Source: Psammoneis japonica
Taxonomy: Eukaryota
Reading direction: 5' to 3'
DNA length: 64,000 nt
Assembly: GCA_008632985.1 (NCBI GenBank)
Contig: QPGO01000047.1
Span: 62,001 to 126,000, forward strand
In this document: piece after piece, positions 12,752 through 64,000 of the stretch
Layout: the number at the start of each line of letters is the position of its first letter
Numbering within the stretch: the first letter of the stretch is position 1
Notes under the pieces: model-generated
The model's input: only the letters and a program-made list of their open reading frames with translations
Database searches by the model: none
What the model was told of the DNA's origin: nothing
Made by a program: the position numbers and the translations under genes

Positions 12752-12959
12752 GACAAGCCAAGCAGGGATTCAAGGTATAAAGCGAGAACAGAACGACGAA
12801 ACAAGCAATCAATGCAACAACGAGCAATCAGTCTACTTCTGCATCTGCATGATGGATGTACAGCTGCGACGACGCACCCCGGTATTTTTGAATAAGGAAA
12901 TTATGCATTCGACATAGAAATTAGTCTACTTTTTTCACACCGGTACGGAACACACAGCC

Positions 12960-26274: not shown

Positions 26275-26519
26275 TTGCGCTGCATGTGCTGCAGTGGCAG
26301 AAATGAAAGTGAGGATGCTTTTAAAGAGATGCTGTCAAGTTCTTCAACTCTCATCCTTGCCCAAATGACATTTTCTGGGATTGATGGTGCCAACTGTCAA
26401 TCAACTTATGTGCGAGCACCCCACTCAGAGGAATTGATCATTTTTCATTGCTTTCTTTGCCACTTTGTGTTGCGCGGGGCTTGCCCGCTCCAGGAATGGT
26501 CAATCCCTTGACAACATCG

Positions 26520-27736
26520 TCAAATGTCATGCCAAGCAAGTGCTGCCAACATCTGCCATGGCGTGAAAACCAATCATGCAAGAACATGGAAAGACCATGA
26601 TTGAGATCCAGTGCACGACACAGAGTCCACACCATGTGAATGCCGGTTTCCTCAAATCCTTCACGATGAATCACTTGTTCAAATGTTTCTCCGGCTTCGA
26701 AGCCAGCCAGAGCCGTGTGCATTTTGGGTTGATGGCTCTTGCCAGCAGAGCACGATGCAAACAATGCAAGCTCGCTGTGCTTCTCATTCAGGAGTGGTGC
26801 TTGTGTCCGAGTGTTGGCAAAGCTTCGTGCTGCATCAAAAGAAGAATCATCTTGATCATCATCCAGCTAAACACCGGAGATGGCAGCTGTTGGAAGCGAG
26901 TCCAAGAAACATCTTTTTGCTGTTGTCTGGTGCATCTTGAAGATCAACGAGAGCTGGCTCAGCAGGTGACACAAACAAGTGTTCTCTGCCATGAACAACA
27001 GACATGGCATTTGGCATTGGCTTGTTTCTTGAAGTTTCGGGTGGCTTCTTCATCTCGCCGAAGATGAATTGCCCAATCCAGAGGCATGCTTTTGACGCGC
27101 TCATTTCACTGCTTTCATCCACAGCATCACCACGTGGAATTCCAACTGCATCGGATGTCAAATCGGCATCAGCATCCGCAAGCAGCTGCATGTTCCTCTG
27201 TCAATTTGCGTGAGTCGAGTGCACCACCGTCTGCACCAACAAGCGGACTGATGAGTCATGGTCTTGCCCAGAAATGGCAATGGCCACAAATCCCTTGTCA
27301 AGCCACTTTGTCCTTTTGGTTGAAACTTGGTGCTGGCAGCACTGTTGTCAGCAATGGCACAATCGACATTCATTTGTTTGCAGATCACAAGCGCTGCTTC
27401 TGGTGCCATCCAGTGAAGCTTTGATCGAATGGAAATGTCCGCTTCAATTTCTCTGCCAGGCTTCATTCTTGAAATCAGTGGCACAAGGCCCACATCACAA
27501 TGGAGGAAGAAAGGACTCTAACCATGGAAGATGGAAGATTCCACAGCAGCGATTCTATTTTTTAACTCTTGTTGAGACCATTGACCAGACAACTTGTGAA
27601 CGAGGAGAAGTTGTGAATGACCACCTTGCAACAATGCAGTTTGGAGAAGCAAATGAATTCAAATGTTGCGCTGAAGTGCAGTGCGGGACCAATTCGCAGC
27701 AAGGCCAAGGCAGAGAAGAGTGTTGCATTTGTCATC
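26520..27736 (-). pseudogene. NADH pyrophosphatase (NudC/NUDT12-like Nudix) relic
   Basis: MHTALAGF-EAGETFEQVIHREGFEETGI (Nudix box), then SVSCTGSQSWSF (SQPWPFP motif) and SCMIGF in shifted frames. The upstream limit is uncertain. Confidence 0.75.
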
Positions 27737-30585
27737 ACTTTGGTTTGGTCTTTGTCAGAAACAGCAAGTTTGGAAGTTGTGGCACCAGATGTGGTTGGCT
27801 TGCTGCTGCTGCTGGTGCATGAGAGATGAAAGCGCACATGCAAAGCACACAAATGAAGCACCGGCAACAACCAGACATGCACCATTGGCAACAATGGGCA
27901 CACAAGAAGTGTGCAGCGTTGCATGATGTGGAATGATCGTCTGTGCTTGTCCGCGTCGTGATGGCCAGCCACGCACCGAACCCTCTGCCAAGCAACCCAC
28001 TCCCGGCTTGGGAGGTCTGTGCCAAGCAACCAAGAAGAAGAGATTGGTTGCTCACAATTGCAGCCCAGACCAGATGGCACACTGTGTTCATTCTCACACC
28101 AAACCATGTTCAACTTTTTTGGGTCTTCCATTCTTGCTTGGTGCATGTCCTGCCTCGTGTTGGCAGTGGCAAGTTCTCACTCCCCCAGTGCTGAGAGGTG
28201 TTTCTGGGGTTCTCATTGTTGTTTGCTTTTGTGTCTGTGCAGGGGATCATGTGTGTCTTTGATGCCAAGGCAGTGCTGCAAAGTGTCTGAGGCCCGGTTT
28301 TTCAATGTTCAATGCCAAAGTTGGGCCACACATTTCTGCTTGGTGCAAAACCCTCAAGTGATGAAAATGATGCACACAGCTTTTTTCTTTGCAGCTCTGC
28401 TGCTGAAAATGCAGGGCAGTTGCTGGCCTCAAGAGAGCCGCCCATTGAATTTCACATCAAAGCAAGCTGCCAAGCAAGCTCACAAGGATGGTTTTTGTGC
28501 ACTGTGCACCCCCTGGCACATGTTCTTCACACAACTTGTGCATTTGCACAGAGGCACAGCAGCTTGTGCAACAGCGGACATTGTCCTGAGGGAGAGCCTG
28601 TTGTTGCCAAGCACAATCCAGAGACAGTGTCTTTTTTCCATCCTCGCACCCATCCTTCTTCTGTCTTGCTTTCATCCAGCACACTTTTCAATCTCTTCTT
28701 GTTTGGAGCAGGCAACCAAGCAGAAGCAAAGCTCTTAAAGAGAGCAACCAGCAGATCTTGCCTTTCTGCAAATTTCTCTGCAAGACCCATGTTGTGGCTG
28801 ATTGCAAGGAAATGTTGGTCAACCTCTGTGAATTTTGTGTGCATGAACCATGCTTGCATGGCAGCACTCATGTCGTCTTTTTGAGACTCTTACAAAAAGA
28901 TGGCCATTTTGAGAGGAGAAGAAAGCACTCAAGGAGCATTCTGGGTTTTTTGTCACGAATGAGCCCCTCTTGTCTTCTCCAATCTCAGAGATTGTGCTCA
29001 TGAGGCAGCATCCAAGTGTGGTTGTGCCTTGAGCTGTCTGACTGTCTTTGCCAACACAGGGTTCCTGATGGCTGGTGCCACCCCGGTGACTCTTTTTTTC
29101 CGGGCTGATCTCACCACACAGACACATGGCTTTGACCCCAGGCAGTGCCTGGATCATTTGGATCTTCTGGAATTGCAAGAATGCAGCAACCCAGCAAGCT
29201 CAGTGCAAAGCAAAAAAGATGCTTTCATTTGCACTGGCCTGACATGACAAGCTCAACAAGATGCAAAAACATCACTGCAGCATGCAAAGGAGTGTGCGCA
29301 TCACAACGACTGTCCAAAACACAATCCGAAGACCATGGTGTGTGATGACACCCAATGGGCACTGGGCAGTTTCTGGATGCAAGTGTTGCAGCCACTGGTT
29401 TGAAAGTTGTGAGGAGGCAAGCCTCCAAGGCAAACCGCCTCTCCCGGGTCTTCTGTTTCAGATGACCATCGTGCAACTTTTTGGCTCCACCTGGGCCAAC
29501 TTTTTGTTTCTATCACACATCCTGCTTGCTCCATTTTCATCCATCATGGCTCTCATTGCACATGTTGCCATGTGCAAGATGTTTGCAACAATGCACAAGA
29601 GCCATCCACCTTGTTCATGGTTGGTGTGGTCGAGTCTCTGTCCTGTTCTTCATTGCAAAACATGCACAGTGGGATTTGTGCAGCTTCATGGAAAGGAGTG
29701 CTTGCATCCCACAGCAGTTCATGTGGTGTTAGAGATTGGGGCTTTGGTGCTGTTTTTGGGCCTGCCCACAACAATCCGGCTCGGTTGTCTGGGTCTGCAC
29801 CGCTTCTTTGCACACGTGATTTTCTACTCGCTCGGAATGAAACCGGTTTTTGCCATGGTGTTTCGGATTGTCCAAGGTCTTGCTTTCCCGGACGCTTTTG
29901 CAAACCCCAATGCATGAAAACAGGGACATCTCTACACAGTCCTTGTTGCCTCTATCATCATTGTAATTTATGATGCCTGGACTCTCCGGGGAAAGATGTT
30001 TGAATGGAAGGACCCTGCATTGGAACACTTTCGTTGAAGTGGCATCCGTCGATTCCATTCTACCTTCTGTAGTTTCGACCGCACAAAGCTACGGTAAAAT
30101 GAAGTTCTGACGAATTTAGTAAACACCGAGACTCCATACGCGGCACAGCAGATGATGTTTCATATCATGTCACCCACAGATCAACGAACATCGGCAGGGT
30201 CATCAAGAAAAGATACGACGTGTTCTTTTTGGTGCTAAGATCAAACGCTATTACACAGCCAAAGTTATCAATCCTTTCGGATCATCTCTCTGGGGGTACT
30301 GGGTACTGGTAGGCCCTATGTAGTTCCCAAAGGGGCACGGAGTTCTGACAAGAGGCATCCCGATCACCGCCTTCACGTTCGATGCCAGCTGTCACTTTGG
30401 TTCCACCGAGTATAGATACCAAAATGAAAGCAGGCATAGACTCCGTTAGAACAATGCTAGAAAGCGAATGTGTGCTACCGTACCAATTTGCTCACTGATC
30501 TGGCATGAACTCGCAACCATCAACAACATCGGTACAACGTCCATGTGCTGCGTGGCACTGAAAATTGCTGGAACAATCAGTCACG

Positions 30586-33790: not shown

Positions 33791-34239
33791 AGCTAGTCCG
33801 CAACGCCACCCGCGGAGGAGCCCCACTGGCCACTTTCGTCTTGCTCCAAAACCTTCTACATAGAATTGACTTCGTCACCGATAGTGATGAACTCCTCTCC
33901 TTCATACAAGGTCTTCTCGCCATCTCCGATTTTAACTAACCTCGTCTGAGGGAAGCCAGCAGTAGCACAGAGCGAGCTATTTCATATTGCAGAGACGCTT
34001 TCTGCCGTTGGTCAGCTCAACATCTCCTCTTTCTTGATCCGGTCGTCCACGGGCTCGACCGCGCATCTGTGCGCGATTCTACCATTTTTTCGTCAACGTC
34101 CGGGGTGCGAAGATGTCCAAGTGTGCAATTAGCGCGAGGACGAGCCGAGTGCTTCTCGTCATCAGACAAAGTATTTTCAAGCTAGAGTGCTTTGAACGGA
34201 TGTCGGGGGGGGGGGGGGGGGGCAACAGGGTGTCAGTAA

Positions 34240-37200
34240 ACACGTCAATGCCCTCAACTGCGACACGGACAGGAACATCATGTTTTGTTTGTGCTTCCAT
34301 TCCCAACTCCTTGGACAAAGCAAACGTGGATGCTGACCTGGACACCGGCACCGCCCATCTCAATCACATCGCAGAACTTGTCAGCGAGTGCACAAGACGC
34401 CGTCAGCTGCCTTGCAGAACTTGGAAAGATCAACTTCATCTTCCGTTTCGCACATTGGTTCCCCTTTCTCCTTGAGCGCTGCAGCGTGAGACCATGAGAC
34501 GGGGTCGCATTGATTGAAAGCCACGCGGTGGTGCACTGTGACCTCCAGCTGTTGGTGACTCCACAGCAGAGCCGTCAATTCCCTGGCTACAAACACAATG
34601 ACTGTGTGACATGGCATCGGAACAACATTTCTTCTCTTGGCAACAGGAGCAGCGTGTGATTCCGCGTGCTTGCTCTTTCTCTCTCTTTCTTGTGTTTTGT
34701 GGGCATCTTCCCAATCAAAGCTCGAATTGCCTTGTCGAGGGGGTTCCCTTGCATTTTTTTCTCGCAGGCTGCCTTTCTCTGATGCCACTTGGACGGAGAT
34801 CCACAAGAACCCCAAATTGGAGCTAGACTTGCTCAGCGGCAATGGCGAGTTCCTTGCAGTCAGCTGGACAAGAGCCCCCCTTGTGTTTTCCTTCCGCTGA
34901 TTTCAGACTTGAAAAACCTCTGTTTGTTCCTTGAACACGAGCTCCTTCGAGTCACCCGACACGCCCCTTCTTAAAATGAGAAATCATTTTCCACGTCACA
35001 TTCTGAGGCTGGAAATGACCCATGTCATTCTTCATGCTTTGAAATGAAAAGCAGCGCACGAGCTCTTTCAAATCCTCAGTGTAAACACGCATCAGTTCCA
35101 AGAAGTCCACCAATTGCTGCACCGTTGAGGCTAGATCCTCCACCATGTCTCGAAGCATGTAAATTCAGCTTTGGAGAGTCATTTTTGCAGCGAGCTTTTG
35201 GAAGCATGCCGAAACGCAAGGTGTGCATCAGTGCGCATTGAAGACTCTTCGTCCCGCAGTTCAAAGTTTCTCGCGGTCTTCTCGAACAAAATTGGTGTCA
35301 GTGTGTTGATGATCTTGTCTCCGCAGTGTGCATCAACATCATAAAACGGAGCGCACTTGGACACGTGTGATTGCAAGTGGGTGGCAGCATTGAAGAGAAT
35401 GTTGTCTCGTTGGTCAAGTGAAAAAAGAGGAGTGACAGAACAATGCGCAGCGTCCAAGTTTTCCTGCTCTTGGGACATGAGCAAAGGAGTGTGTCAGCAA
35501 ACTCGTGGAGGCTGCAGAGAGCACTTTTCTGCCGTTTCTGGACTGGAAATGGAGAGCAACAGGATGATGGAAGGTGGAGAGAATGCCACTGTGGTGTGAT
35601 GTGCGAGGTGTGAGGTGTGTGGTGTGTTGCTGGATGCGGGACAGTCGACAGTTGCGTGGTTGGATTTTGGATTTAAAAAAAAGTCAACAAATCAAATTTC
35701 AAAAGTTGAGGGGATTGTCAACTGAAGCATGATGTCATGATCAATTTGTTGGAGGTTTGTCTCATTTTTCTTTCAGAAACAGAAAAATCATTGTGTTGTC
35801 CACGCTGCATGTGTGTGTGATGTGCGTTCTCCTTTCTTCGCTTCACTGCCAACGGCGGAAGCAGGGCGGATGTGTGTCAGCAGAGGAACACACAATCAAC
35901 AACATGCAATGATGCCCGATGTGCTGCAGTGCATCATTTCTCTTTGATTCACTCTGCTGTCAGCATGAGTCCACCCACACAAGAATGATGTCTTCTGCAG
36001 AAAATGATGACCTGAATGGCATCAAGGAGAAATTTGCAAATTGCACGAGCAGCGGACAGAGCAAACCAGCAGCACAGCAGAAATTGCCAGGCTCGACGAC
36101 AAAATGGATCTTTTTGTGAGCAGCAACAACAAAGACAGATGGCACCACTGACAAAGCAAGTTAGTTGGGCAACTCAAATGGGGCCGCTTCTCTGCCCAAC
36201 GAAGGGCAAAAATGGCACTGTGATTGGCTGGGGCGGTGACAGCCACATGCTGCAAGTCAGACGGAGGCAAAAAAAGCAACACAGAAAAAAGTTCAGCTTG
36301 AGTCTTTGAAGTTGACCTTGCTGGTGGCAAATTGTCAAAGAGAACTGCTGACAGCAGACCCCACTTTCAGATCTTTTGCATTGGCATGCTTGCAAGCCAT
36401 TTGTTCTTGAAGCACCACCCAAGCTGGGTGCCAAACAGAGCTCATGGCATTTGTTGAGTTGAGAGCAGATTTGATGTGTGCTGTCATCACAGGTGAGTGC
36501 TGCATCTCACTGGTGAGGAGCTTTGTTTTGGGTGGTTGTTCTCAGCACCCAACATTTGTTGTCCTTTGCTGGAATCTGCACACCAGGTCCAGAGGGAACT
36601 CCTTGTGTCACTGGGATGCTTGCTTTGTGACACATTTTTTTGTCACAGCCCTGCCAGGGGGGGCACAAAAAGCCAAGCTCTTGGCTGCTGCTGGTGTTTC
36701 TTGGAAACTTGGACAGGCCCTGGTTGGATTGCCAGCAAATCTTCCCTGCCACAGGTGAGCTGGAAGCACCCAGCATCTCATCATCTCACCTTGCTTGGTC
36801 CAGGAGCTTTTTTTTCAACAAGGCCTGGCTTTGAGCTGCGCTGGCAAAAGTCAAAAAGTCCTCAAATGAATGCCCTGCAAAGGCAAGCTGGACTCAAGGT
36901 GTTGTTAGCATCCTGAATCTTTGCAATGCATGAAGTGAACACTGCTTCTGCACACCAAGGTCAAAGACATCGAAGACCTCAGCTGGGGCGGTGTGGTGCG
37001 GGCATCGACAGATCGCAGTGCGAAGGTGCAAGATGAAAGGCTGGCTGTGCATTCACAAACCTCTGGGCTCTTCTGGGGACCAAGCAACAAAGTCAAGCCT
37101 TTGCTGTTGATTGGGAGTGATGTTTCACACAGTCTCGGGTCAAGGTGTTGATTGGCTCTTCCAGCCTTGCTTCCAACAAGGGAGACACGCTCCTCATTGT

Positions 37201-37290
37201 GTTGTTGTGGTGGCGAAAACCAGTGTTGAACTGCATGCCAGCATGTTCTCACTCCGGTCTCTCTCTTTCTCCTTGCCTTGGATTGCGTCC
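34240..37290. other. TpA-depleted domain D, preceded by an 18-nt G run (34205-34222)
   Basis: TA is scarce. CpG is depleted mostly in 36300-36950. Contains unidentified decayed coding-like sequence at about 34950-35500. Confidence 0.8.
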
Positions 37291-37576
37291 GAAAAATATG
37301 TGATGGATACAACAACTCTCTTTTGCCACTCAATGTGTAGAAAAACGAGAAAGGAACGTTCCAGCGTTGGGAATGGCATGCGTGCGACGTGCGTGCCTTT
37401 GAACTGGTTGCCGGCGACCAGCCGTCGTTCGTCTGCTCATCGCGCGCCACATCTTGACGCGAATTTGTTGACAACACGAAATGAACACCAAAACACAACA
37501 CGCAACACGCAAAACAGAGAGCACAACACCAAAACACGAAACTTAAAACAACGACAACCAAAGCAGAACACACAAC

Positions 37577-42557: not shown

Positions 42558-43484
42558 ATGATGTCCTCTGTCCTCTTTATGAATGCCGTGATCAACGTCA
42601 GCCACTGTGACTTGACCACAGCTGTGATTCAACGCAAGAGCACGAGCGATTGGCTTCGTTTTGCTCTTTGGGTCGGCCATTGCGCCTTGCTACAAGATCT
42701 CGATGTTGTTTCCATCACAATGTTCTCGACGTTTATCTATGGATTGTGCCAGGGGTTGTTGGGGCTCACGGAGGACTTTTTGCATGTCAAGCAGCAGTGG
42801 TTTCCGAACGTCACTGTCAAATCGATTTGCTCCTCCATCATCGGGTCTCCCATCTGGAGCCAACTCCATTTCGTTGCCATCAAGTGCAAATCAATCTTAT
42901 TGAAGTGTGTGGGACTCGTCATTGGCATGTCCAAGGAATGCATCAAGCGTGTTGACTTTGCGAGCGCAGCAGCCGTCTTGAAGCGCTTCGATTTGACTGC
43001 TGCGGTTGTCGTGTTTCACATCGGCATGGCTTTCAAGAATTTTGACATCAGTGGCCTCATGGGATTTCTCCTCCGTCTCATGTTGGTGTTGGTGCTGGCC
43101 TGTCTCATTCGCATGCACGTTGCGGGATTGTTTTTACCATCAACCGAGGACGATCTGTCGAGCCATCGCGACGACCGTGTCAAGAAGCCTTGGAAGGAGC
43201 CAACGTCCAAATTCAAGAAGGGACAGTGCGTGCATTGTCGCCATTCAAACAAGACGTGCAGGGCAAAGATTTTAAGGGTCCATTTTGATGATGATCTTGA
43301 CCCGTTCTACGATGTGAAATTGGGCGACGGATGCGAGAAGCAGATGACCGAGGACCACCTTTCGGACCAGCTCGGCTCAGGTCACATTCAGGTTTTTATT
43401 GACATCTTTGACGACGATCCGGATTGCAACATGTTGCAAGGTGCTCAATGGGGGGAAGGGGATGTCGTCAGTGCAATCTTGTGA
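42558..43484 (+). pseudogene. Hypothetical membrane protein with a small C-terminal SH3/Tudor-like motif, TpA-eroded
   Basis: Open 308-aa frame containing FKKGQCVHCRHSNKTCRAKILRVHFDDDLDPFYDVKLGDGCEKQ, with Cys/His where aromatic residues would be expected. Confidence 0.5.
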
Positions 43485-45574
43485 CGATTGTTCCATCAAG
43501 ATGTTCGATGGGGGAGGATTGCCGAGTGTCATGTGTGGATGCGGTGTGACGAGTTTGCGTGTTGAATTCTTTGTTCAACTTGGGCTCTCTTTTTTCCGAA
43601 AAAAAGGCCTTTGCTGTTGAGATCAGAGGGCAACCATCTTTGTGTTGTTGAATGAGAGTTTGGTTGATTGCGTTGGGTCTTGAATTCAAGCTCGTGTTGG
43701 ACACACATTTAATTTGAGCTGATTCCGAAGCATGTCATTGTTTCCGAACAGAGCATGTGAACGAGAGAATGAGAGATTCACGCGGCACTCAAACCCAAAT
43801 TCATGCCGGTGTGAAGGTGGTGCCATCTTTTTCGAAAGCAGAGGGGCGGCTGTTAAAAAATCGAGAAAGGAAAGTTGAAGTCGAGGAAACTGTTCAACAC
43901 GAGAAACTCTTGCTCCCTCTGCAGGAGACGCTTTGCCATTCTAATTCAGTTGGGCAATCTATTTTGGTTTCATTCAATCAAGATGAGCAGAGTCTTGTAC
44001 AAAACAAACATCAAACAAACACAAAATTTTGGCCAACACTTCTCCGTGTCGTCGCAAACTAGTTTTAATTGCACTTTTCGTCGTTCGTGGCACAGCTTGC
44101 ATTCGCAATCAATCGATCGAAGGCTGAGGACGTCACGCCGGCGGACCAGCATGGCACCCTTTTTAGACTGCAACAGTTGCGGACTTGCCTGTTGTTCAAC
44201 ACTGATTGACAGCAGCCACTCTCCACTGCTAGTTGTCAAGAACAAAGACCAACCAAACTGTTCAGTGGCTCTTGCTGCAGTCAGGCTAAGTAGATCCATT
44301 CCACCCAGATGTCCCCTCAGATCGAAACCACAAGAGAGCAAAAGCCTCAACACTTAAAACATTTCGTGTGGAAGCTGGAAAGAGCAAACTTGTTGTGAAA
44401 CTCGAGGCATCAAGAAGGACATTTTCAATGCACTTTGCACAAGAATCGCCTTTGAAGCGAGAATTGCAGCAGTTTCTGGTTGATCCATTACCCAGCGAGC
44501 AAGGTCGTGGGTCTTTTCTATCACTGTTTGGGCCTGCTTTATGTTTTCTCCTTTGCCGCGGTAGGCCAACAGGGCAAAGATCCTTGAAAAGATGTCGCCA
44601 AGCATGCATCCTCCGCCTTCTGTTCTGATGCATCTTGGAATGAGTGTGCACGGCGGATGGACATGTTTTTTTCTGCATCGAGCATGTCCGCCATGAAGAG
44701 ACGTCTCTTTCCAAAGCACATTGGAGGGCCTTGCCCACTGATGCAGAAACGTGCGAATGCCAAGAGGGCAAAGGGCTCTCCCAAGCAACAATGGCCGTGC
44801 TGGCCTTCCAATCAAAAAAGAAATCATCTCCTTCCTCTACGTTGTCGTCATGCTTCATGGCAAGTGCAAAGGCCAAGCGAATCAGATTTGAGTCTCGTCG
44901 CTGAGCCACCGTGTTGAACCGCAGTTTACCACACCAACTGTCCATCAACAATTTAAAGTTAGAAACATCGAAAGACATCAGAACTCTTTCTCGCGTTCCC
45001 ACACCAAAGGCGCTTCGGGTCCCGCCAACTTGAGCGCTTCCTCCCTTCCACAGTCAACTTCTCCTTCAATCTCCTCCACACCTTTCCCAGATGCAATGAG
45101 TCGCCCGATTTCCCCCTTGACATTGTCCACTGCGACTTTCGCACTTCCCTGACACGATCAAGGCGAGCTAGAAGTGGAGCGAAAACGTCCACTTTCCCTG
45201 CAGCAGCTGGCTCCTCGGTGTTGGGTTGAAGAGCAAGCCCAGTTGGCCAAAGGGAGGAGCCCTGATCTGCTTCTGTTGCAAATGATCGACATTCGCTACA
45301 AAATGCTCCCATGGTTGAAAACGCAGCAACAACATCGACCTGACCACACTCAATGACGGCAAACATCTTGTCGCGGATCCAACCGATCAGCGCGGTTTCC
45401 ATGATTTTATTGGCATTGCGAAGATGCCACTTGCCAAAGCAGTTTGCAGGATCCACCGAAAACAACAATGGCGGAGCATCCCGAGACGACGGATGTGTCG
45501 AGCAATTTAAAAAAAAAAAACGCTTCTTTCCGGAAATGGCTTCAAAGGCCTCCACATCAATTTCCTCCGCACTG

Positions 45575-46065
45575 CATCTGAGCATTCACCCAAGATCCAG
45601 AGACAAACGTGTGTTATGTTGCCAGAAGAACTGTCTTTGATGAAACCCAACAAATTGGGCGAGATGGATCCTTGCAGTGCAGGGTGCTGTTCGACAATGG
45701 CTCTGACAAAAAGAGCAACCTGCACAGAACCATCCGCGGCCAAAAAGTCCATGAGAGCAAAAACAACCGACTCGGCAAAATTGGGAAATCGCACAGCGCA
45801 TCTGTGAACGGCCCAAATCAGAATGTTCCGGTGGGCCATGCCCTTGGCTTCCACCATGGTAGAGTCCTGCTCTTGAGCAGTCTCGGCAACCTCGCGATTG
45901 AGCGTCGAAACCAAAATCAGCAACGTCCATGGCAACATCGAGAACCTTCTCGCAAAAATCAGCGCTGCAGGAACTGAGCGTGTGAAGAATGCCCATTGGC
46001 AGCTGCAAGATCTTGTAATGACGAGTCTTGAGGTCTTCCAACCGTTCACGAACAATGAGCTTGAC
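45575..46065 (-). pseudogene. COPB1: Internal fragment of coatomer beta subunit (beta-COP)
   Basis: VKLIVRERLEDLKTRH..ILHTLSS..KVLDVAMD and AHRNILIWAVHRCAVRFPNFAESVVFALMDFL..FVRAIVEQHPAL..LWILGECS match beta-COP (YR..LI.A.H.CA..FP, E.YP.L, LWILGEYS). Confidence 0.85.
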
Positions 46066-46857
46066 AAGTTTGTGTGGGTGGAATGGCAATGGGTGCCGAA
46101 AAAAGCGACACTGGAACACAAGCTGCCTCGCACCGGTGGGACACGGCAGCAGACGTGCTGGAAAGCATTGGAAACAAGATCTGGACAAAATCGTGACTTT
46201 TGGGTAGGATCACGACGACACAGCTTGGACCTTGACGAGAGGCCTCCACTGGACATTGTCCGCAAATCCATTGAGTTGGCAGACAAAATTGAGTTCTGAA
46301 CTTGGCAAACAACTCGACTTGATTTTGCATCATTCACTTGGTAGTGTTGCGTGTTGTTGTTGTTGCAGACATGGTACTTTCTTGCTTTGCTTGTAATGCC
46401 AATAAACTTGAAGAAGAACGCTCGTTGCTTGCGACGTGTGGGTGTTCCTTGGATGGATGCGGCGTCATGTTTGGCGCCAAGGTTTGTTGGAGATGTGATG
46501 CTGTTGTGGTGGCGGCGCTGCTACAGTATACTTCATCCAGCTTGTGGCCCGTCACGGACGGTGTAGTGGCTGCAGACCCCAAAAGGCAAGCGAAGTCACG
46601 GTCGGGCTGTCATCATGGCGAGAAGAAAATCAATCGCGCTGCATTCGGTCTCAATTGTCATCATGGCGAGAAGCAAATCAACTTTGTTGAAATGTACCAA
46701 TACAGATTCTTATATCTATATTGAAATTCCAAAATCACGTAGAATTGTACTGAAAAAAGTGCTGCCGACGGACGAAGGCAGGACACGAGTGCTCTCGCCA
46801 CTCGCACTCGCGCTCTTACCGATAGAGCGCGAGTGGGCGAGAGACTCAGAAAGCGGA

Positions 46858-53480: not shown

Positions 53481-53829
53481 GTACAGCGGTAATGTCGTTC
53501 ATCCCTCCTCTCACAAGATCAGGCTGCAAACTATTCCTTCAAAGCTGCATCCGATCCAACAACTATCACCTATCACAATCTTCGCCGAAGTATTGTCTTG
53601 CGCAAAATAAAAAAATTAAAAAGATAGGGACTATAACTACGGTAACTCCAAACTTCGCATAAAATAAAAGCTCGTCCGTCGCTCGTGTCTTCCTTTGATG
53701 TTTGCACCCGCCGCATCCACCCGCCCAGACTACACACCTCTCTCTACTCCAGTGGCCACCCCGAGTGCCGGTGCTGTAGCTAACTCTACCCCAGAGAGAA
53801 TAGAGGATGCAGGCAGCTAGATTGCCCAG

Positions 53830-56330
53830 CACACTGAGAGGAGAGACCCCGTTGAGTGAGATGCGAAAAACAGTTTGTGCGCTCTCTTCTGTCTTGTGGA
53901 AATCAGAGCAGCAGGTGACAACGAGAGGTGAAAGCGCTGTGCATGACCATGTCATGTTCGATCTCTCCATGCACTGCATGAAATTGCTTGCAAGCTTCAC
54001 TGCATTGGCAGGAGCTTCCAATGCAATGAACTCAAGGAAAAAGCATCTGAGAACAAGAGAAGGACCTCCTCCTGCACCAATGATGTGCTGTTGTCCAAGC
54101 CGACAAGCTGCTTGAAACAAAGCCAACTCACTCTGATTCTCCACATTGCCCAGCAAGAAAATGCATGCATCCTTGTGCAAGCAACACCCAAAAATGAGCA
54201 CAAGCAGCTTGAGTTCCAACAACCCAAGCCCCGCCATTGTGAGCAGCACTGCCAACACAAGCCCCCTTGACAATTGAAAGGACACGCCAGTCAGAATGCT
54301 GCAACCCATCTTTTGAGCCCAAAGATGAGCTTAAAATGTCTTGAGATGGACTGGCAACCCAAGTCATGAATGAATGAAAACAATGCTTTGCATGGCATGG
54401 CAGCACGTGTGTGTTCCATCAACATGAGATTGGCGCACACACACTCACACAACAAGATTGTGTCAAGGCAGATGGGTTGGTGAATGTCTTGAGATGGTGG
54501 GTTGTCAATCTGAACCATGGATGAGCAAACAATGCTTTGCATGGCATGCACATTTGTGCTCTGCAAACACTGGTGTGCACATTGAGCTTCCACCCAGATG
54601 CAGTGTTTTTGCATGAATGACCACAGTGTGTTCTGGGAGACAAGAATGGAGTCCATCATGGGTGGGAACCTGACCAAGCCCAACTGCTTTGAGGTGCACA
54701 AACAGCACATCAAGAGCAGCCAAAGATGCCAAGAACAGAGCCTCTGCTGGGAGTGCAGGTCCTCAGTGCAGGCAGGTGCCACACCAGCTGCTGCAGATGG
54801 AAGGGGGCAGCCAAAGAGGCAGAAGAAGCCCCAGGAGAAGGAGCATGCAGTCAGAGCTGGCCATTGTTCCAAGAATGAGTGAGAGGGCTTGATCAATGAC
54901 AAAGAGACCCAAGCAGGAAAGCAGCAGCTTTGAAGCCAGGGTGAGGCAGAGCACACTGGTGCAAGGTCAGCATGGCTGTTGCCACTGCTGGCAAGGACAA
55001 AATGAAGAGACGAGAACATGGTTGTTGTTGAACCACTCCTTCTGTGAAAAACTTTTGTCATGTGGTGGCCTTCAAGTTGCACAGTGTGAAAACCAAAAAG
55101 CCTTCTTCTCATTGTGGGCCCATTGTGTGAGATGCCCCACACTTTTGCAAGCAGACAACCCAGCCCATCAATGGTGCATCATCGTGGGTTTGTGTTGGAA
55201 GGCAAGCAACAATGAAGCTGTCCTCACAGCTGCCACCATCAAAAATGCACCCAAGTGTGTCAAGATGGCTTTCACATGTGGCTTGTGGAGTTGACAACAA
55301 AGCTTTGTCATGCAAGGTGGGCTTGAGCAAGGCCTGCTGGCTGCCATGGGGGTGAAGGTGTCCAAATGCAAAGCTGTTGCTGGTGTTGAAGTGTTCATTT
55401 TTGTTCTCACACAACTTGCCCCACATTCTGAAAGCACAAAACCAAATCTTGCTCATGCAAACTGAGATCAAAAAGATGAGAAATCAAAGAAAGGAGAGTC
55501 TGAAAAGGCCTTTGCTTGCAGCTGTCCAGTTTTGTAGATGGTCACTTCATGCTCACATTGGTGCCAGCCAAGATTCTGTGGGAAAGGTGCCTGCATGAGC
55601 TTCCTTGTCACTGAGAGCCCCCAACTGTTGTTGCAAGCAACAAAGATTGTTTTGGGCTTTTCTGCAAGAAGAGAGCAGTTGTTTCCTGTTGCAAACCTTC
55701 TTGATGAGCTTTTTAGTGGTGGTGCAAGAAAGTGAGGCTGGAGACAAGAAATCAAAGCAAGTGCAGCAAGGCTTGCAAGTGTTCTGCAACATGAATGTTT
55801 TGGGTGAGCACCCAAGCACTTGCCTGTCCGAGCACCCGCTGAAGATGTTTTGGATGAGCCTCCGAACATCATTGAAACATTGAAAACAAGAAGTCAACAG
55901 AGGAACAGAGCTGTTTGTGTGTGTTGTGAGATTTTTGAGAATTCCATTGACCTTTGCAATGACCCCAAAGATCAGCTGAATTTGAAAGATGTCTTTTCAG
56001 CACCACAAACAATGGCAACACAGACAAAAAGAGGAAGGAGGTGGCAACACATTGCTTTCTGAGAAATGTTGGCCATGTCAATGTCTGAACCCTCAGACAA
56101 GGCAGGCGGCCAACCCTTCCAAATGCTGCAACAGACCACAAAACTTGTTCTCCTCTTTGGCAGCAATGATGTCATCACATGGTGTGCACTCTGTCAACAA
56201 GCAGTGCTGGGATCTTTTTTGTGCTGATCACTTTCTTTGTGCATGTCTCATTCCCTTGAGCAACAATTTTCACATTGAGAGAGGGAACATTGACCATGTC
56301 ATCTGCATGACAGGCTTCATCATTAGATTG
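53830..56330. other. TpA- and CpG-depleted domain F
   Basis: About four TA seen in about 2.5 kb, and CpG nearly absent. Confidence 0.88.
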
Positions 56331-57801: not shown

Positions 57802-58169
57802 AGAATGAAAGGTGTGATGTTGAAGATTATGGTTGTATTACACAAGTCAAGTAAATATCTCTAGTAAGTAGGAGGTTTGGTATTGCGTGGTACCGGTAGC
57901 TCTAGTAGATGAGTAGGTCTCTAGAAGTGTCCTATGGGTGATTCGTTAGCATAAGTTATTGTGTCGCATTGACTGCTCTCGATTTAGGATGCTGAGTACG
58001 AGAATTACGGGTTGCAATAATGAGCTGCACGGAGAATGCAATGGCTATCACAGTGTAGAAGTGGGCGACTACTGCTAGTTGTTGCCTGCGCTCTCTACAG
58101 ACAAACAACATGAATCTTGCGTTTGTTTAAAACATCGCAAACTGTCATAAACTGTGAAGAACACACGAC

Positions 58170-58610
58170 ATTTTGAGCATTCTCGTCAATGCAAAAACCG
58201 TGGCCTGTCATCTCAGAACAGCTCTTGCAAACAGAAAAAGGTTCCAATCAAAACCACAATGATTCCAACAATCAAAAAGTACCTTGCCAACTATAAAGTC
58301 CCTTGAGTTTGAGACAAAAGAGACACCAGCAAGATGAGGGCAATCACAGAGCCCATGCAACAGCCCACCAAATCCAAAACCACGCCCAAGGGCAGATCAT
58401 TGATGGCTAAAAAGGCTGCAACAACCCATGCCAAGAGAGTTGTCAGCATGATGTGAAAGAAAAAAACACTGACTGACATCCACCAACCACCAGGCATCTG
58501 CTGGAAGCAGCAACTTTGACCACACACCACTTGCCACAACTGTGCTGCTTTTCATGGTGGACAGACAAAAGACAGCGATAATTTCTGACTCATGACTTAA
58601 AGAAATGGCA
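58170..58610 (-). pseudogene. Hypermutated duplicate of the 3' end of the amino-acid transporter gene at 63100-63525
   Basis: Colinear nucleotide match, and LGVVLDLVGCCMG occurs in both copies. Confidence 0.92.
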
Positions 58611-61600
58611 CATGACCCTGAGCCACAGTGCTGGTGAAACAGAGCAGATCACCCACCACAACATCACCCAGACAAAGAGCAAAATGTCTTTTGCGTTCCA
58701 TGATTTTTTGCTCTTCTGACGGGGTTCAATGCCTTCCTTGTTGACCAGGGACAGAGGCACATTGCAGGCTGTGTCCTGAGAAAAAGACCATGACTCCTTT
58801 TCATCTTTTGTGACTCCAAGGATGTGATGACCTCCTCTCATTTTTTTGTCCTGTCAAGCCTTCCTCTCCAACCTTGCCTTTTTCCATTGGGCTGAGGTGG
58901 TTGCTCTAAAAACACACCCGCTGTTGCAAGGCATGCACAGATGCCCATCACACATGACACTCTTTCTTGCCACTGCCGGCACAGCGCCAAAGGCAGCAAG
59001 AAAGATTTGACAGCTTTGAGAAACCTCTGTGTGCTGTGTGAGACCCACCACATCCTGCAGCGGTCTTGGCACTGCTCCAAAAAAATGACCAAGCCTGCGT
59101 GTTTGTGTGCAAAGGCAGAGGATCCTTTCAAGCTTGACCCTCTTGCCTTTGTGAGCAATGAAGAGTGCATGGCAGAGCAGGTGGACCAGCCACTTTGCTG
59201 AAATGTCCTGTCAGGTGCTTTCACAATGACGATGCAGGGCACAAGCGGTGTGCCCAACAACCCAACAATCAATGTCAAATTTGTGGCAGGTCAAAGACAA
59301 CATGTTCTCATGGCAAAAGCTTTGTGTGGCAGCTGACCCCTTTTTGTCCAGGCCAGCTTTTGCACCCACTTTTGCATCATTTCCTTCAAGGACTTGCTCC
59401 TGGAGCTGATGGCAGGCATTTTGTGGGCTGCATCATTTGTTGGGAAATGAAGTCCAAAGACCCTGGCCATTCCAAATTTGATGCTTTTGAGCACAGCTCC
59501 TGTGCTGAAACAACCCGCCGAAGAACATCCTTTGTCAATGCCAAAGACAGCTGGGGGGGGGCTTCCCCTCACACATCCCATCAAGGAAGAATGCCCAGCT
59601 GCTGCCTTCCCAGAGAAATGCACTTTTCTGCCTTGGTTTCACGACCGCACCCTCTGCATGTTTTTCCATGTGAGCTCTTGTGCAGATGTCACCTTTCTCC
59701 AATGGTGTGACAACGGCTCTCCTCACATGCCTGTTCTGACCACTTTTTTGCTTCATTGATGTGCCTTCATTTGTTTCATCATCATGAGCAATTCATGCAT
59801 TGGAGTTTGGCCAGCATTGAGCCCTTTTGGTTTGTTTGCTTGTCATTCTTCTCGGCATTTTTCTTTCTCACATGCAAATTTTCCACACAAATGCGAAAGT
59901 CATTTCAGATGGTCAACTTGCTGGACTGTTGGCTTCTCTCTGTCCTCACCTCTCAGGCGTCAACACATCCCCCCTCCACTCATTGTCAATTTAAGTTCCC
60001 TGCTTTTTGTGGCAAGCAATGTTCCACTCTGTTGCAGCTCTCAGAAGCTTCAATTTGAGGCCAACTCAGCATGCTGCACCAGCCTTTTTCCCATGTGCCA
60101 ACAACTCTGCACAAGTTTGAGCACATGCTCTGCACGTCTGAAAAGTCATTTTGGATGAACAACCCACCAAGCTGTTGACTGTGCTGCTCTTTGTCCATGC
60201 CTCTTGGCAGGTGTGAACAACTTCCCTTGCATCTGCTGTTGGCTTGAGCCATCTGCATCATGTGGCAAACAACCCCCCATCATTGCTGATCCCAGAAGTT
60301 TGAGTTTGGGGCCAGCTCAATGTGGGTCAGTGTTTGCTCCATGCCCTGCTCTTTCTCACATCAAAGCTTTTCCAGCAGGCGGCCCACTTTGCCTTTGCAG
60401 CTGGGTGCAGCCCCAAGAAGAAAACCCAGTTACAGCATGAGGGCATTGAGCTCTTTGACTTTGATGTCTTGTTCCAATGGTCCTGTTTTTGCTGCTGCCA
60501 GCTGTCTCCGTTGGGCACCACAGACTCACGGCATCAATCTTGGCCAATTGTTGCACACTCCTGCTGCGCAGTGTGCTGGGGGTGTGGGTTGGCTTGTGCT
60601 GCTGGCCGGAGTTGCAGGGTGGAAAAGCGCAACAGTGAGCCACTTGGCACCACACTGGCAGCAATCTGCATGCAGCTGAAATGTGCAATGTCCAAGGTTG
60701 GCCGCTCTTGTGCAGTGCCACACCGCGAAATCTGTGGCCGTCGTGGCTGGCACCCCACCCCCGCGCACAATGTCATGCCACAAAAGTTGTGGAAACTCAG
60801 GACCCTGTATCTTGACCTTTTTTCCCACCTCTGAAGGCACACTCTCAGAGCAAGACAGAAAGGATCAAAACAGCCAAAGTGGCTTGGAGCACACAATTGC
60901 TTCAGTTGCAGTCCAGCTGCAGATTTGCGAGCTTTTTTTTAATGAGTGACGCTCACTTTCAAGGAAGAAGCGAGTGCCGCAGATCTTTTCACCGTGCCTT
61001 CATTTTTTCTTTCACCCAAATCGTCAGACAACACAACCCGACACTTTGTCCATTTCACCAGTTGAGCGCGTTTGGTGCAAACAAAGTAGACTGCTCAGTC
61101 AGTGCAATGCCACAACGGGCGGGTGTGGATTTGCTGTGGATTTGCGATTTCATTGTCATGCACGTCTTGTGACTTCTTGCTTCAAGTTGCAGCAGAAGTC
61201 ATGTGGCATTCGCGCGGAAGGGGGGGCTGCCATCACGCTTCTGTTCTGGTGTGGGTTGATGATTTGGAGTGCATGATGAGAAAAGCAGCAGGCACAAGCA
61301 TGGACAATGGCTTGAGACAATGGCTCCTCATTTTTCGATGGACGCTCACTGCGTTGGTTTGACTGTGTGTCTGAGTGCATCAGCAGTTCTTTCATTGACT
61401 GGTGGTGCATGCATTGTTTGCAGGATTGTGAAAGGGAAGAAGATTGACAAGCTGCACCACGCTTGATGCTGGAAATCTCGATCTCAGACATCGTCTTCAC
61501 TCTGGCCGCATTTCTGAGTCCACACATGATGCCGTCAGCGACAGGCATCGTCACCTCCAGGGGAAGCAATGCGTCAGGCTCGGCATCTGCGACGTTTCTT

Positions 61601-61650
61601 GTTGCTGGAAATCTTGCCGTTAGCTCCCACTGCTGTCAGCTCAGTTGCTG
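58170..61650. other. TpA- and CpG-depleted domain G, fading into the 7TM gene
   Basis: Very few TA between 58620 and 61650; TA is abundant from about 61830. Confidence 0.85.
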
Positions 61651-62723: not shown

Positions 62724-63137
62724 GGGCCAGTGCATCCATCTATCAATTGGCATGACGAACAGCTTGTTCGACTCCATGCTTATAGTTGGTAATGTTCAGC
62801 TCGTCTATTTCAATTTCTGCGATTGCGAGAAAGAAAGATGCACGGACGAGCGATGGACTGAAAAAAGGAAACAAAGAAGTACGAAAGAGCAATCGAGTGC
62901 TGAGTACAGAAGTATACTGGTTGCGCCAAGTGGCGTGAAGAATGCAATATAGTTATTACAGTGTAAATCAAAATGTAGGTGACAGTTGTTACCTACACCC
63001 TATAGAGACAAAAACCAAACTAATAATGCTAACGTTTCACAAAACAGAAAAAGTGCCATTAACCATGAAGAACATCAACCATGAAGTACGTACGGTATTG
63101 AGCGTTCTCGTCAATACAAAAATCGTAGCCTGTCATC

Positions 63138-64000
63138 TCAAAAGAGCTCTCGCAAGCTGAAAAAGGTCCCAACCAATCCCACAACGATTCCAATAATCAA
63201 AAAGGACCACGCCAACAACGAAAATCCCTTGAGCTTGAGACAAAAGAGACCCGGCAAGATAAAGGCAATCACGGTGCCCATGCAACAGCCCACCAAATCC
63301 AAAACGACGCCCAAGGACGGGGCCTTGATGGCCAAAAAGGTTGTAACGACCCACAAGAGAGTTGTGAGCATGACATGAAAGGAAAAAATGAGTTGATTGA
63401 CATCCACCAACCACCAAGTATCCGCCGGAAGCAGCAACTTTGATTCCACGTCACCCGTTACAATTGCAGTGCTTTTCGTGGTGGACAGAAAGACGACAAT
63501 CATTTCTCGACAGCTAAAGAATGGGAGAGGATACGTAAACATCATTACAAAACAAAGCAACAGCTTTGCCAAATCAATAGCTTTGGTTTGTGGGTATGCC
63601 TCAAACACGTCATCAGGTGTTTGATCCCAAAAGGTAATGTAAATAACAATACCAATGGTTAGCGAGAGAACGGCAGCCAACAGTATCGTCCACGTCGACA
63701 CGGCCTCCCAACTCTTGACGCTTCGAATGTCGGAGCGAAGAGAATTATACGTCAAGTGGACAGTATGCTGCGAGACAAAGTTAAACACAAAGGTCCCGAG
63801 ACTGTAATTGAAAACAGTTTGAGAGATTAGAATCAACAACGACAAGACTGCACGGCTTTCGGTATCAGAGCATGACTTACCTCTCGACAAACCCGGGCTT
63901 GACTTGTAGCCAATTCTCCGAGAAGGTACCGCCTTGAACTCGAACGTCGCCATTCGGATTGTCAATGTACATGAACAATGCAATCAGAATAATGCCTACG
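63138..64000 (-). CDS. Amino-acid transporter (Aa_trans/SLC38A11-like), 5' part outside the window; intron 63802-63880
   Basis: Spliced PGFVESLGTFVFNFVSQH, FTYPLPFFSCRE and LGVVLDLVGCCMGTVIAFILPG. Confidence 0.92.

What the first reader, a model, noticed from the sequence alone, without database searches (positions are those of the whole stretch)
58170..58610. In-window parent/copy pair shows the direction of mutation
Seen: relative to the intact transporter 3' end (63100-63525), the copy has caatacaa->caatgcaa, cgtagcc->cgtggcc, caataatc->caacaatc, agataaa->agatgag, tgtaacg->tgcaaca and agtatccgccgg->ggcatctgctgg. It also has CG->TG/CA changes (ctcgcaa->cttgcaa, ccggca->ccagca, ttcgtg->ttcatg). 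The ctaaag site survives as ttaaag. TpA and CpG both converge on TG/CA. Two or three changes do not fit a strict TAY rule, so the motif is a preference rather than absolute.
Basis: seen in the sequence. Interest (0 to 1): 0.76.

Follow-up and report, generated by a model that had tools for sequence, protein, structure and literature searches.

The report
TA-erasing hypermutation footprint in a diatom
A broken copy of the tail of a transporter gene, sitting at the edge of a gene-poor block of diatom DNA, has had every TA and most CG steps rewritten to TG or CA, which shows that the many TA-free blocks here were made by a targeted mutation process like one recently reported in another alga.

Summary
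The copy (58146-58586) matches the 3' end of an intact Aa_trans transporter gene (63073-63507, minus strand) at 80% identity. None of the parent's 10 TpA is kept, and 9 are TG or CA in the copy. Only 4 of 20 CpG are kept, and 15 are TG or CA. By contrast, 290 of 395 other dinucleotides are kept.

The copy lies at the edge of one of seven TpA-free islands. These cover 44% of the window, with TpA o/e 0.02-0.14 against 0.60 outside.

Direction: the pair itself polarises CpG firmly, because two Pro that are invariant in the outgroups are Leu in the copy. It polarises TpA only thinly. Three other gene fragments inside islands settle TpA: conserved Tyr (TAY) reads Cys or His at 10 of 12 columns. A tandem array also shows TA or CG as the middle state between TG and CA.

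Context preference is TAY > TAG > TAA.

The organism is a diatom by homologues. The same TpA-to-TpG/CpA hypermutation was reported in 2026 for Bigelowiella natans, in one preprint. The diatom setting, the accompanying CpG decay and the 3' context were not in what I read of it. The enzyme and the targeting rule are inferred, not shown.

The parts
58146..58586 (-). Pseudogenised copy of the transporter's last ~120 codons plus its 3' UTR. This is the core match, and all of it lies inside the TpA-free island.
   Evidence: blastn 80.4% identity. tblastn with P0001 residues 290-391 gives E 3e-11. There are frameshifting gaps and a TAG stop at codon 195 in the parent's frame.
57988..58148 (-). Left part of the same duplicated segment (the gene's downstream flank), lying just outside the island. 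TpA is only partly lost here.
   Evidence: Alignment. 5 of 14 aligned parent TpA are kept, 4 are TG or CA and 5 are other. The copy has 10 TpA in 161 bases here, against 6 in 58149-58612.
63073..63507 (-). Parent: the 3' end of an intact Aa_trans (SLC38-like) amino-acid transporter gene. The stop codon is at 63138-63140 and the last exon runs up to about 63801.
   Evidence: Pfam PF01490, E 2.2e-26. 84 homologues, the best 70% identical. A GT..AG intron at about 63802-63880 was read on the minus strand. A contig piece of run X2 ends at 63801.
58149..61620 (.). TpA-free, CpG-poor island 7, which holds the copy at its left edge.
   Evidence: TpA o/e 0.05, CpG 0.32, TG 1.72, CA 1.73; 12 TpA in 3472 bases. 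No Pfam hit in its ORFs. No terminal repeats. An X1 contig of 5470 bases spans 56346-61814 with 2 other letters.
1..6009 (.). Island 1. The left 2.5 kb also lacks CpG. The right part keeps CpG and holds a ~216-base tandem array (3827-5076).
12945..15838 (.). Island 2.
   Evidence: TpA o/e 0.03, CpG 0.28.
23407..29729 (.). Island 3, with a broken multi-domain lamin-tail-domain (LTD) gene at 23444-26271 (+).
   Evidence: TpA 0.05, CpG 0.40. PF00932 with E 5.8e-29, 4.7e-11 and 2.4e-27. An in-frame TGA at 24422-24424. Tyr columns read Cys or His.
34238..37543 (.). Island 4.
   Evidence: TpA 0.06, CpG 0.55.
42739..46341 (.). Island 5, the least decayed. It holds a frameshifted coatomer-beta fragment (45585-46276, minus strand) and a Tudor-knot-like domain fragment (about 43194-43364, plus strand).
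   Evidence: TpA 0.14, CpG 0.81. tblastn with P0208 residues 253-484 gives three pieces in different frames. P0328 against P0331.
53819..56323 (.). Island 6, the most decayed.
   Evidence: TpA 0.02, CpG 0.12; 3 TpA in 2505 bases.

Best explanation
A roughly 600-base piece of a diatom amino-acid transporter gene (its last ~120 codons plus downstream flank) was duplicated about 4.9 kb away. The copy ended up straddling the edge of a 3.5-kb gene-poor block.

Inside such blocks two context-specific mutation processes have run almost to completion:
1. A:T to G:C transitions at TpA, on either strand, so TA becomes TG or CA. The edited A is preferred when followed by a pyrimidine (TAY > TAG > TAA).
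2. The classical CpG to TpG/CpA decay, which runs more slowly.

The parent keeps the ancestral letters and the copy shows the products. This much is shown.

Inferred: this is the long-term footprint, in a diatom, of the TpA-targeted hypermutation seen in real time in Bigelowiella natans. The likeliest chemistry is enzymatic deamination of adenine in DNA (A to inosine, read as G) by a TadA/ADAT2-type enzyme. It would be directed at silenced, CpG-methylated chromatin and not at sequence homology. The CpG loss would come from 5-methylcytosine deamination in the same domains.
For: The pair:
- 0 of 10 TpA and 4 of 20 CpG are kept, against 290 of 395 other dinucleotides. The products are TG or CA in 9 and 15 cases.
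- A control duplicate in ordinary DNA keeps 12 of 26 TpA and 20 of 25 CpG.

Direction:
- The parent matches the outgroup consensus at 9 conserved columns and the copy at 1. P161L and P183L are CCG to CTG.
- In island genes, strongly conserved Tyr columns read as follows. LTD: C, C, F, C, C, H at 6 columns where 23-32 of 33-35 homologues have Tyr. Coatomer beta: H at 3 of 3. Tudor-like repeat: H and C, with one Y kept. Together, 10 of 12 are Cys or His.
- The LTD ORFs have 0 and 1 Tyr (0 and 0.3%), against 2.4% in homologues.
- Tandem array in island 1: CA/TG is the commonest adjacent double difference (62, the next kind 11). Of 21 mixed columns, 3 still show TA and 11 still show CG beside TG and/or CA, and none shows TA together with CG.
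- Among the 40 best-supported differences that one search printed (1,560 more were not shown), I read 5 island-5 places where the window has CA or TG and a paralogous or allelic contig has TA, and 1 the other way round. The same pattern occurs at 61601.

Extent:
- 24 of 64 one-kb windows have TpA o/e at or below 0.14.
- There are 110 TpA in the 28,112 island bases, against 1,410 outside.
- TG and CA counts are near equal in every island, so both strands are affected.

Context: tetranucleotide island/outside ratios are RTAY 6/399, mixed 50/770 and YTAR 54/241 (TTAA 24/48).

Two clocks: across the seven islands, TpA o/e (0.02-0.14) and CpG o/e (0.12-0.81) rise together.

Targeting is not by homology. 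The island edge at 58149 falls inside the duplicated segment, the island runs 3 kb beyond it, and the parent is untouched.

The sequence is real. One k-mer contig of run X1 bridges the gene and the island (56346-61814) with 2 other letters. The scaffold has an N gap at 41389-41665.

Precedent: the B. natans preprint reports 230 of 231 mutations in its hypermutable regions as A>G or T>C, all at TpA, and 124 TpA-poor clusters.
Against: - The pair alone polarises TpA weakly. Five of the ten sites are in the UTR and three of those are in ambiguous alignment. One of the two informative codons (I203V) favours the copy by outgroup majority, 26 of 30.
- No DNA-level outgroup could be fetched. The metagenome relatives found are only 32-58% identical at protein level.
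- No methylation, chromatin or expression data were available, and no whole genome is held. The enzyme, the silencing and the targeting rule are therefore untested.
- The islands show no viral or transposon domain, unlike the B. natans targets. Of 254 ORFs scanned, only LTD, a coatomer fragment and a weak NUDIX hit fell in islands.
- 3 of the 7 firm TpA changes in the pair do not fit TAY.
- Run X1 is probably the sample the window was assembled from, so it is not independent support.
- 0 of 147 one-kb windows in 20 related diatom contigs fall below TpA o/e 0.37, so the process is not general in diatoms.
Confidence: 0.75

Rival explanations
1. Same footprint, different chemistry. The thymine, not the adenine, of TpA is the target. 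For example, oxidation to 5-hydroxymethyluracil by a TET/JBP-type dioxygenase, with mispairing or error-prone repair, would give T to C. On that strand the motif would read RTA.
For: The data cannot tell which base of the pair is hit. TA>CA and TA>TG are mirror images and occur about equally often. TAY on one strand is RTA on the other. Preferential replacement of T at TpA by hydroxymethyluracil in dinoflagellates is recalled, not checked here.
Against: No call supports it directly. The only published proposal for this signature is adenine deamination, with an ADAT2-like candidate.
Confidence: 0.15
2. Reverse direction. TG/CA is ancestral, and the intact gene, like ordinary DNA in general, gained TpA through a RIP-like C-to-T change at CpA/TpG.
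For: At codon 203 the copy's Val matches 26 of 30 outgroups.
Against: - The parent's TpA density is ordinary for this window (o/e 0.60 outside islands). It is also ordinary for 147 one-kb windows of related diatoms (0.37-1.36).
- Conserved Tyr codons cannot have been Cys or His in dozens of outgroups.
- TA is the middle state between TG and CA in the tandem array.
- The parent keeps the outgroup residue at 9 of 10 conserved columns that differ.
Confidence: 0.02
3. Artefact. The islands carry heavily modified TpA and CpG that the sequencer misreads, so the letters are wrong and nothing has mutated.
For: Base modifications can cause systematic miscalls on some platforms (general knowledge). The only DNA run found is probably the assembly's own sample.
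Against: - A strand-specific miscall would give conflicting k-mers from the two strands. Instead, one exact-k-mer contig of 5470 bases runs through gene and island with 2 other letters.
- The scaffold has an N gap, typical of short-read scaffolding.
- The copy also differs from the parent by indels and 17 transversions.
- Each TpA site is cleanly TG or CA.
Confidence: 0.03
4. The islands are foreign DNA (virus or transposon) whose native composition lacks TpA and CpG. On this view the copy's changes are ordinary drift.
For: In B. natans the targets are integrated viruses. The nearest named LTD homologues are bacterial MAG proteins.
Against: - Host-derived fragments inside islands show the same conversions against their own relatives. 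These are the transporter tail, coatomer beta and a Tudor-like domain, and their best named relatives are diatoms.
- Drift does not remove 10 of 10 TpA.
- No viral or transposon domain was found.
Confidence: 0.03
5. RNA editing followed by retrocopying. An ADAR-like enzyme edited transcripts and the edited RNA was copied back into DNA.
For: ADARs favour a 5' U.
Against: - The listed ADAR context is 5'-UAG, whereas here TAY is preferred.
- Both strands are equally affected, and conversion is near total over 2.5-6.3 kb blocks.
- The duplicated segment runs to about 62896, some 160 bases beyond where a transcript-like contig of the parent ends (63055).
- No poly-A tract adjoins the copy.
Confidence: 0.02

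Closest known systems
TpA-targeted hypermutation of integrated giant-virus and virophage DNA in Bigelowiella natans (Mettrop et al., bioRxiv 10.64898/2026.01.13.699255). I read the abstract, Results and Discussion and ran a term search. The supplements were not available.
   Same: Only TpA is hit. The products are TpG and CpA depending on the strand. The effect is confined to discrete regions. Over time it leaves TpA-poor, CpA+TpG-rich clusters. The direction is GC-ward, against the usual bias.
   Different: - Lineage: a diatom (stramenopile), not a chlorarachniophyte (rhizarian).
- Evidence: a footprint only, with no live mutations observed.
- Extent: 44% of this window is affected, against 124 clusters in the 85-million-base callable genome there.
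- Targets: here they show no viral or transposon domain and include host gene fragments.
- CpG: here it decays alongside TpA. The preprint's main text never mentions CpG (0 occurrences).
- Context: a 3' pyrimidine preference is measured here. The terms 'trinucleotide' and 'flanking' occur 0 times in the preprint's text. Its Figure 2B and Table S2, which I could not see, may show a context.
Repeat-induced point mutation (RIP) of fungi
   Same: A context-specific transition process that riddles non-genic or duplicated DNA and leaves a dinucleotide signature. The copy of a duplicated gene piece is ruined.
   Different: RIP turns CpA into TpA and so enriches TpA. Here TpA is erased. RIP mutates both copies over the duplicated length. 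Here the parent is intact, and the mutated zone neither starts nor ends with the duplication.
CpG decay by deamination of 5-methylcytosine in methylated transposons. Transposons are the main CG-methylation targets in diatoms, maintained by DNMT5a (PMC9998398, passages read).
   Same: CpG to TpG/CpA on both strands, confined to non-genic blocks. 15 of the 20 parental CpG follow it.
   Different: It does not touch TpA. Methylation of these islands was not measured. CpG loss here is slower and more variable (o/e 0.12-0.81) than TpA loss.
Polynucleotide adenosine deaminases: TadA/ADAT2-3 (tRNA A34, which follows U33) and ADARs. I read passages and Table 1 of PMC10661471.
   Same: A to I, read as G, with a U/T 5' of the edited A. 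In the natural tRNA substrate the edited A34 is preceded by the conserved U33. That table lists 5'-ACG as the TadA/ADAT2 context.
   Different: These enzymes act on RNA. The listed ADAR context is 5'-UAG, not TAY. No such gene could be examined because no genome is held. The early base-editor preference for YAC is recalled from memory and was not found in the passages read.

Membership tests
B. natans-type TpA hypermutation | Changes fall on TpA and give TpG or CpA | tested here: met
   9 of 10 parental TpA (7 of 7 alignment-independent ones) are TG or CA in the copy. 10 of 12 conserved Tyr columns read Cys or His.
B. natans-type TpA hypermutation | Confined to discrete regions that contrast sharply with the rest of the genome | tested here: met
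   Seven islands with TpA o/e 0.02-0.14 against 0.60 outside. One edge falls between 58148 and 58160.
B. natans-type TpA hypermutation | Targets are of viral or other foreign origin | tested here: inconclusive
   No viral or transposon Pfam domain in 254 ORFs. The islands hold host gene fragments. The LTD gene's nearest named homologues are bacterial.
B. natans-type TpA hypermutation | De novo mutations at a rate about 1000-fold above background in living lines | not testable with these tools
   This needs mutation-accumulation or population resequencing.
Fungal RIP | C:G to T:A at CpA, enriching TpA | tested here: not met
   TpA is depleted 4- to 30-fold in the islands, and TG/CA are enriched.
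Fungal RIP | Both copies of a duplication are mutated, over the duplicated length | tested here: not met
   The parent is intact. The island edge lies inside the duplicated segment and the island extends 3 kb beyond it.
5mC-driven CpG decay | CpG to TpG/CpA | tested here: met
   15 of 20 parental CpG. P161L and P183L are polarised by 30 of 30 outgroups.
5mC-driven CpG decay | The region is CpG-methylated | not testable with these tools
   No methylation data. Transposon methylation in other diatoms comes only from PMC9998398.
ADAR-type hyperediting | 5' U/A and 3' G neighbour preference (UAG) | tested here: not met
   The order here is TAT and TAC (0.04, 0.06) < TAG (0.12) < TAA (0.22) surviving, so a 3' pyrimidine is preferred. 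The listed ADAR context is UAG.
Aa_trans (PF01490) transporter, for the parent gene | Match to the family profile above its curated cut-off | tested here: met
   92.9 bits against a cut-off of 25.6, profile positions 195-405 of 410.

The most novel reading that the evidence does not exclude
Diatoms (at least this lineage) possess a chromatin-directed, homology-independent DNA adenine deaminase with a tRNA-anticodon-like T-A-Y preference. Together with CpG methylation it permanently rewrites silenced DNA, including captured host gene fragments. On this reading it is the same ancient system as in the rhizarian Bigelowiella, and so a SAR-wide counterpart of fungal RIP that has remodelled close to half of this genomic region.
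Probability: 0.3. Interest if true: 0.9.

Novelty: new member of a known kind. Interest (0 to 1): 0.74.

Why it matters
A natural process that converts A:T to G:C in DNA at a defined two-letter step has so far been reported in a single 2026 preprint, in one alga.

Finding its saturated footprint in a diatom puts it in a second eukaryotic supergroup lineage, and in a group that includes genetically tractable model species. There the enzyme, the targeting and the link with CpG methylation could be tested by knockouts.

The window adds three things to what I could read of that report:
- An internal parent/copy pair and decayed host gene fragments that fix the direction.
- A 3' pyrimidine preference (TAY > TAG > TAA), which narrows the enzyme candidates.
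- Co-located but slower CpG decay, which offers a relative clock for island age.

There are practical consequences too. TA-free blocks have no TAA or TAG stops, so they yield long spurious ORFs rich in Cys, His and Trp and lacking Tyr. Gene callers and composition-based tests for foreign DNA will misread them.

Tried and rejected
- Whole genome: none is held. No search for deaminase genes or for the genome-wide distribution of islands was possible.
- DNA-level outgroup: the metagenome scan returned 20 loci only 32-58% identical at protein level. The 70% relative P0001 was not among them. They were too distant to polarise UTR or synonymous sites, so I used them only as a composition control.
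- Sequencing runs: no RNA holder is listed.
- Run X2 (kind guessed as 'DNA?') gives gene-sized pieces. One ends at the transporter's exon border, 63801. It has next to no cover over 54006-56006 and 58008-61342. This absence of cover is not evidence of silence and is not used.
- The lists are truncated (1,560 differences not shown), so the TA-versus-TG/CA comparison with paralogous contigs is anecdotal.
- Transposon anatomy: 57900-61900 has no terminal inverted or long direct repeats. No island matches another island in the window at E below 1e-10.
- Pfam on 113 ORFs of 130 aa or more (whole window) and 141 island ORFs of 75-129 aa found no reverse transcriptase, integrase, transposase or capsid.
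- Strand-run test: the order of TG and CA outcomes along the copy (9 sites, 5 runs) equals the random expectation I worked out by hand, so there is no sign of processive one-strand editing.
- Earlier findings of this scan: nothing for this genome. Word searches gave only phage dinucleotide biases that do not bear on this.
- Literature: 'diatom + TpA + hypermutation' found 0 papers. 'diatom + repeat-induced point mutation + transposable elements + dinucleotide' found 0. A six-term search on TpA, A-to-G and adenine deamination found 7 papers, none relevant by title or abstract.
- The 'YAC' preference of early TadA base editors could not be confirmed in the passages read and remains a recollection.

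Full report
**What is there.** Positions 63141-63801 (minus strand) are the last exon of an intact amino-acid transporter gene of the Aa_trans family (PF01490, 92.9 bits). It has 84 homologues. The best is 70% identical, and all eukaryote-named ones are diatoms: Cylindrotheca, Fragilaria, Fistulifera, Pseudo-nitzschia, Epithemia. A second, broken copy of its last ~120 codons and 3' flank lies 4.9 kb away in the same orientation. blastn pairs 58146-58586 with 63073-63507 at 80.4% identity. A wider alignment extends the homology to about 57988-58612 against 62896-63527. tblastn finds no other part of the gene near the copy. In the parent's frame the copy has gaps of 1, 2, 3 and 3 bases and a stop codon, so it is a pseudogene fragment.

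**The observation.**
- There are 75 substitutions in 432 aligned columns, of which 58 are transitions, nearly equal in all four directions.
- None of the parent's 10 TpA is kept (6 CA, 3 TG, 1 AA).
- 4 of its 20 CpG are kept (9 CA, 6 TG, 1 CC).
- 290 of 395 other dinucleotides are kept.
- Random placement of the 75 substitutions hit all 10 TpA in 2 of 200,000 trials, and 16 or more CpG in 0 of 200,000.
- A control duplicate in ordinary DNA (33079-33762 against 51926-52625, 87% identical) keeps 12 of 26 TpA and 20 of 25 CpG and has no CA/TG swaps.
- Three of the ten TpA lie in a gapped UTR stretch and change fate with the alignment. Seven are firm.

**The setting.** The copy is one edge of a much larger phenomenon.
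- The window has seven blocks almost free of TpA: 1-6009, 12945-15838, 23407-29729, 34238-37543, 42739-46341, 53819-56323 and 58149-61620.
- Together they make 28,112 bases, or 44% of the window.
- They hold 110 TpA, against 1,410 outside.
- Per island, TpA o/e is 0.02-0.14 (0.60 outside), CpG o/e is 0.12-0.81 (1.00 outside), and TG and CA o/e are 1.4-2.0, with near-equal counts of the two.
- The blocks fill the long spaces between clusters of ordinary genes (FtsZ, SNF2, Yip1 and others) and end within 100-900 bases of them.
- They do not resemble one another.
- The N run at 41389-41665 is an assembly gap.
- One exact-k-mer contig of run X1 runs from the Yip1 gene through the whole of island 7 (56346-61814) with 2 other letters. 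The letters are therefore not a strand-specific miscall, although that run is probably the assembly's own sample.

**Direction of change.** The pair itself shows that the copy is the derived sequence.
- At nine columns where 24-30 of 30 outgroup proteins agree, the parent has the consensus residue. The copy has it at one.
- For CpG the direction is firm. Two CCG prolines that are invariant in the outgroups are CTG leucines in the copy.
- For TpA only two codons are informative. T153A favours the parent (Thr 15, Ala 5 of 30). I203V favours the copy by majority (Val 26 of 30), though the closest outgroup has Ile. The pair alone is therefore thin on the very point in its title.

Other material in the window closes the gap. 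A TA-free sequence cannot encode Tyr (TAY).
- In the broken lamin-tail-domain gene of island 3, the six columns where 23-32 of 33-35 homologues have Tyr read C, C, F, C, C, H.
- In the frameshifted coatomer-beta fragment of island 5, all three Tyr aligned in the outgroup read His.
- In a Tudor-like domain fragment of the same island, the conserved 'YY' reads 'HC' and one Tyr survives.
- Ten of twelve columns thus show TAY to TGY or CAY.
- In the ~216-base tandem array of island 1, CA against TG is by far the commonest adjacent double difference between units (62, the next kind 11).
- Of 21 mixed columns there, 3 still show TA and 11 still show CG beside TG and/or CA. None shows TA together with CG. 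TA and CG are therefore the middle, ancestral states.
- In the truncated list I read 5 places in island 5 where a paralogous or allelic contig has TA against the window's CA or TG, and 1 the other way round. The same pattern occurs at 61601.

**Context and tempo.**
- Survival of TpA in islands relative to outside is 0.04 (TAT), 0.06 (TAC), 0.12 (TAG) and 0.22 (TAA).
- By tetranucleotide it is 6/399 for RTAY, 50/770 for mixed contexts and 54/241 for YTAR, with TTAA at 24/48.
- By hand, I checked a model in which the two strands' rates add, and it fits these ratios well.
- In the pair, 4 of the 7 firm changes fit TAY. The one site that survives (ctaaag/ttaaag) is in the refractory YTAR class.
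- Across islands, TpA and CpG loss rise together, but TpA loss is much further advanced. Island 1 is a composite of a CpG-free part and a CpG-retaining part. I read this as two processes with different speeds acting on the same domains.

**Targeting.**
- The island edge falls between 58148 and 58160, inside the duplicated segment.
- To its left, the copy keeps 5 of 14 aligned TpA and has 10 TpA in 161 bases. To its right it keeps none.
- The island runs 3 kb beyond the duplication and the parent is untouched. Homology therefore does not define the target, unlike fungal RIP.
- No viral or transposon domain was found in 254 ORFs, and no terminal repeats.
- What can be recognised in the islands is fragments of host-type genes. 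What marks these blocks remains unknown. I infer silent, CpG-methylated chromatin from the CpG decay and from transposon methylation in other diatoms (PMC9998398, passages).

**What is known.** A 2026 preprint on Bigelowiella natans reports two integrated viral regions mutating about 1000-fold faster than the rest of the genome. 230 of 231 changes there are A>G or T>C, and all are at TpA. It also reports 124 TpA-poor, CpA+TpG-rich clusters genome-wide and an ADAT2-like candidate enzyme. This window shows the saturated form of that signature in a diatom.

Searches for diatom reports found none. 0 of 147 one-kb windows in 20 related diatom contigs fall below TpA o/e 0.37, so the trait is lineage-restricted. 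The preprint's main text does not mention CpG, diatoms or neighbouring-base context. Its supplements and figures were not visible to me and may bear on the context point.

The TAY preference differs from the UAG context listed for ADARs. It recalls the U33-A34 step of the tRNA anticodon loop that TadA/ADAT2 edit. The link to early base-editor 'YAC' preference is from memory only.

**Verdict.** It is a new member (a diatom) of a kind described in one recent preprint, with added features: CpG co-decay, a 3' context preference, host-fragment targets, and an edge inside a duplication. The chemistry and the targeting are inferences.

Noticed in passing
window 61790-61996: A ~207-base stretch just inside the 5' end of the GPCR-like ORF has very high summed contig depth (6036 in its bin, against about 60 beside it). 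Many loose ends fall at 61789/61790 and 61996, and contigs of X1 and X2 skip 61786-61996. It looks like a high-copy small element that is present or absent between alleles or copies.
   Followed up: partly
window 61340-64000: One X1 contig (record 5) is nearly identical to the window over 62620-64000 (1 other letter). It differs at 50 of 446 and 30 of 247 letters over 61340-61785 and 61997-62243. This may be a strongly diverged second haplotype or a chimeric path at the right edge of island 7.
   Followed up: no
window 23444-26271 (+): A multi-domain lamin-tail-domain gene, broken by an in-frame TGA (24422-24424) and a frame change. Its nearest named homologues are proteins of bacterial MAGs (Woeseiaceae, Planctomycetota, Chlamydiia). 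It may be of bacterial origin, which would fit the idea that foreign DNA is targeted.
   Followed up: partly
window 45585-46276 (-) and 43194-43364 (+): Island 5 holds a frameshifted internal fragment of coatomer subunit beta (residues ~253-484 of ~976) and a single Tudor-knot-like repeat of a multi-repeat protein. Together with the transporter tail, three islands carry pieces of host-type genes.
   Followed up: partly
window 33079-33762 and 51926-52625: An 87%-identical duplicate pair in ordinary (TpA-bearing) DNA. I used it here as a control, and its content was not studied.
   Followed up: partly
window 41389-41665: A run of 277 N (a scaffold gap). It explains the apparent low-GC, TpA-free stretch at 41-42 kb in the composition tables.
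   Followed up: yes
all islands: Because TAA and TAG are absent, the islands give long ORFs in all six frames (up to 358 codons). These ORFs are rich in Cys, His and Trp and nearly devoid of Tyr, so an ORF-based gene caller would over-predict here.
   Followed up: partly
window 6334-6393: A 12-base tandem repeat (5 copies) just upstream of the Exo_endo_phos-like ORF, at the right border of island 1.
   Followed up: no
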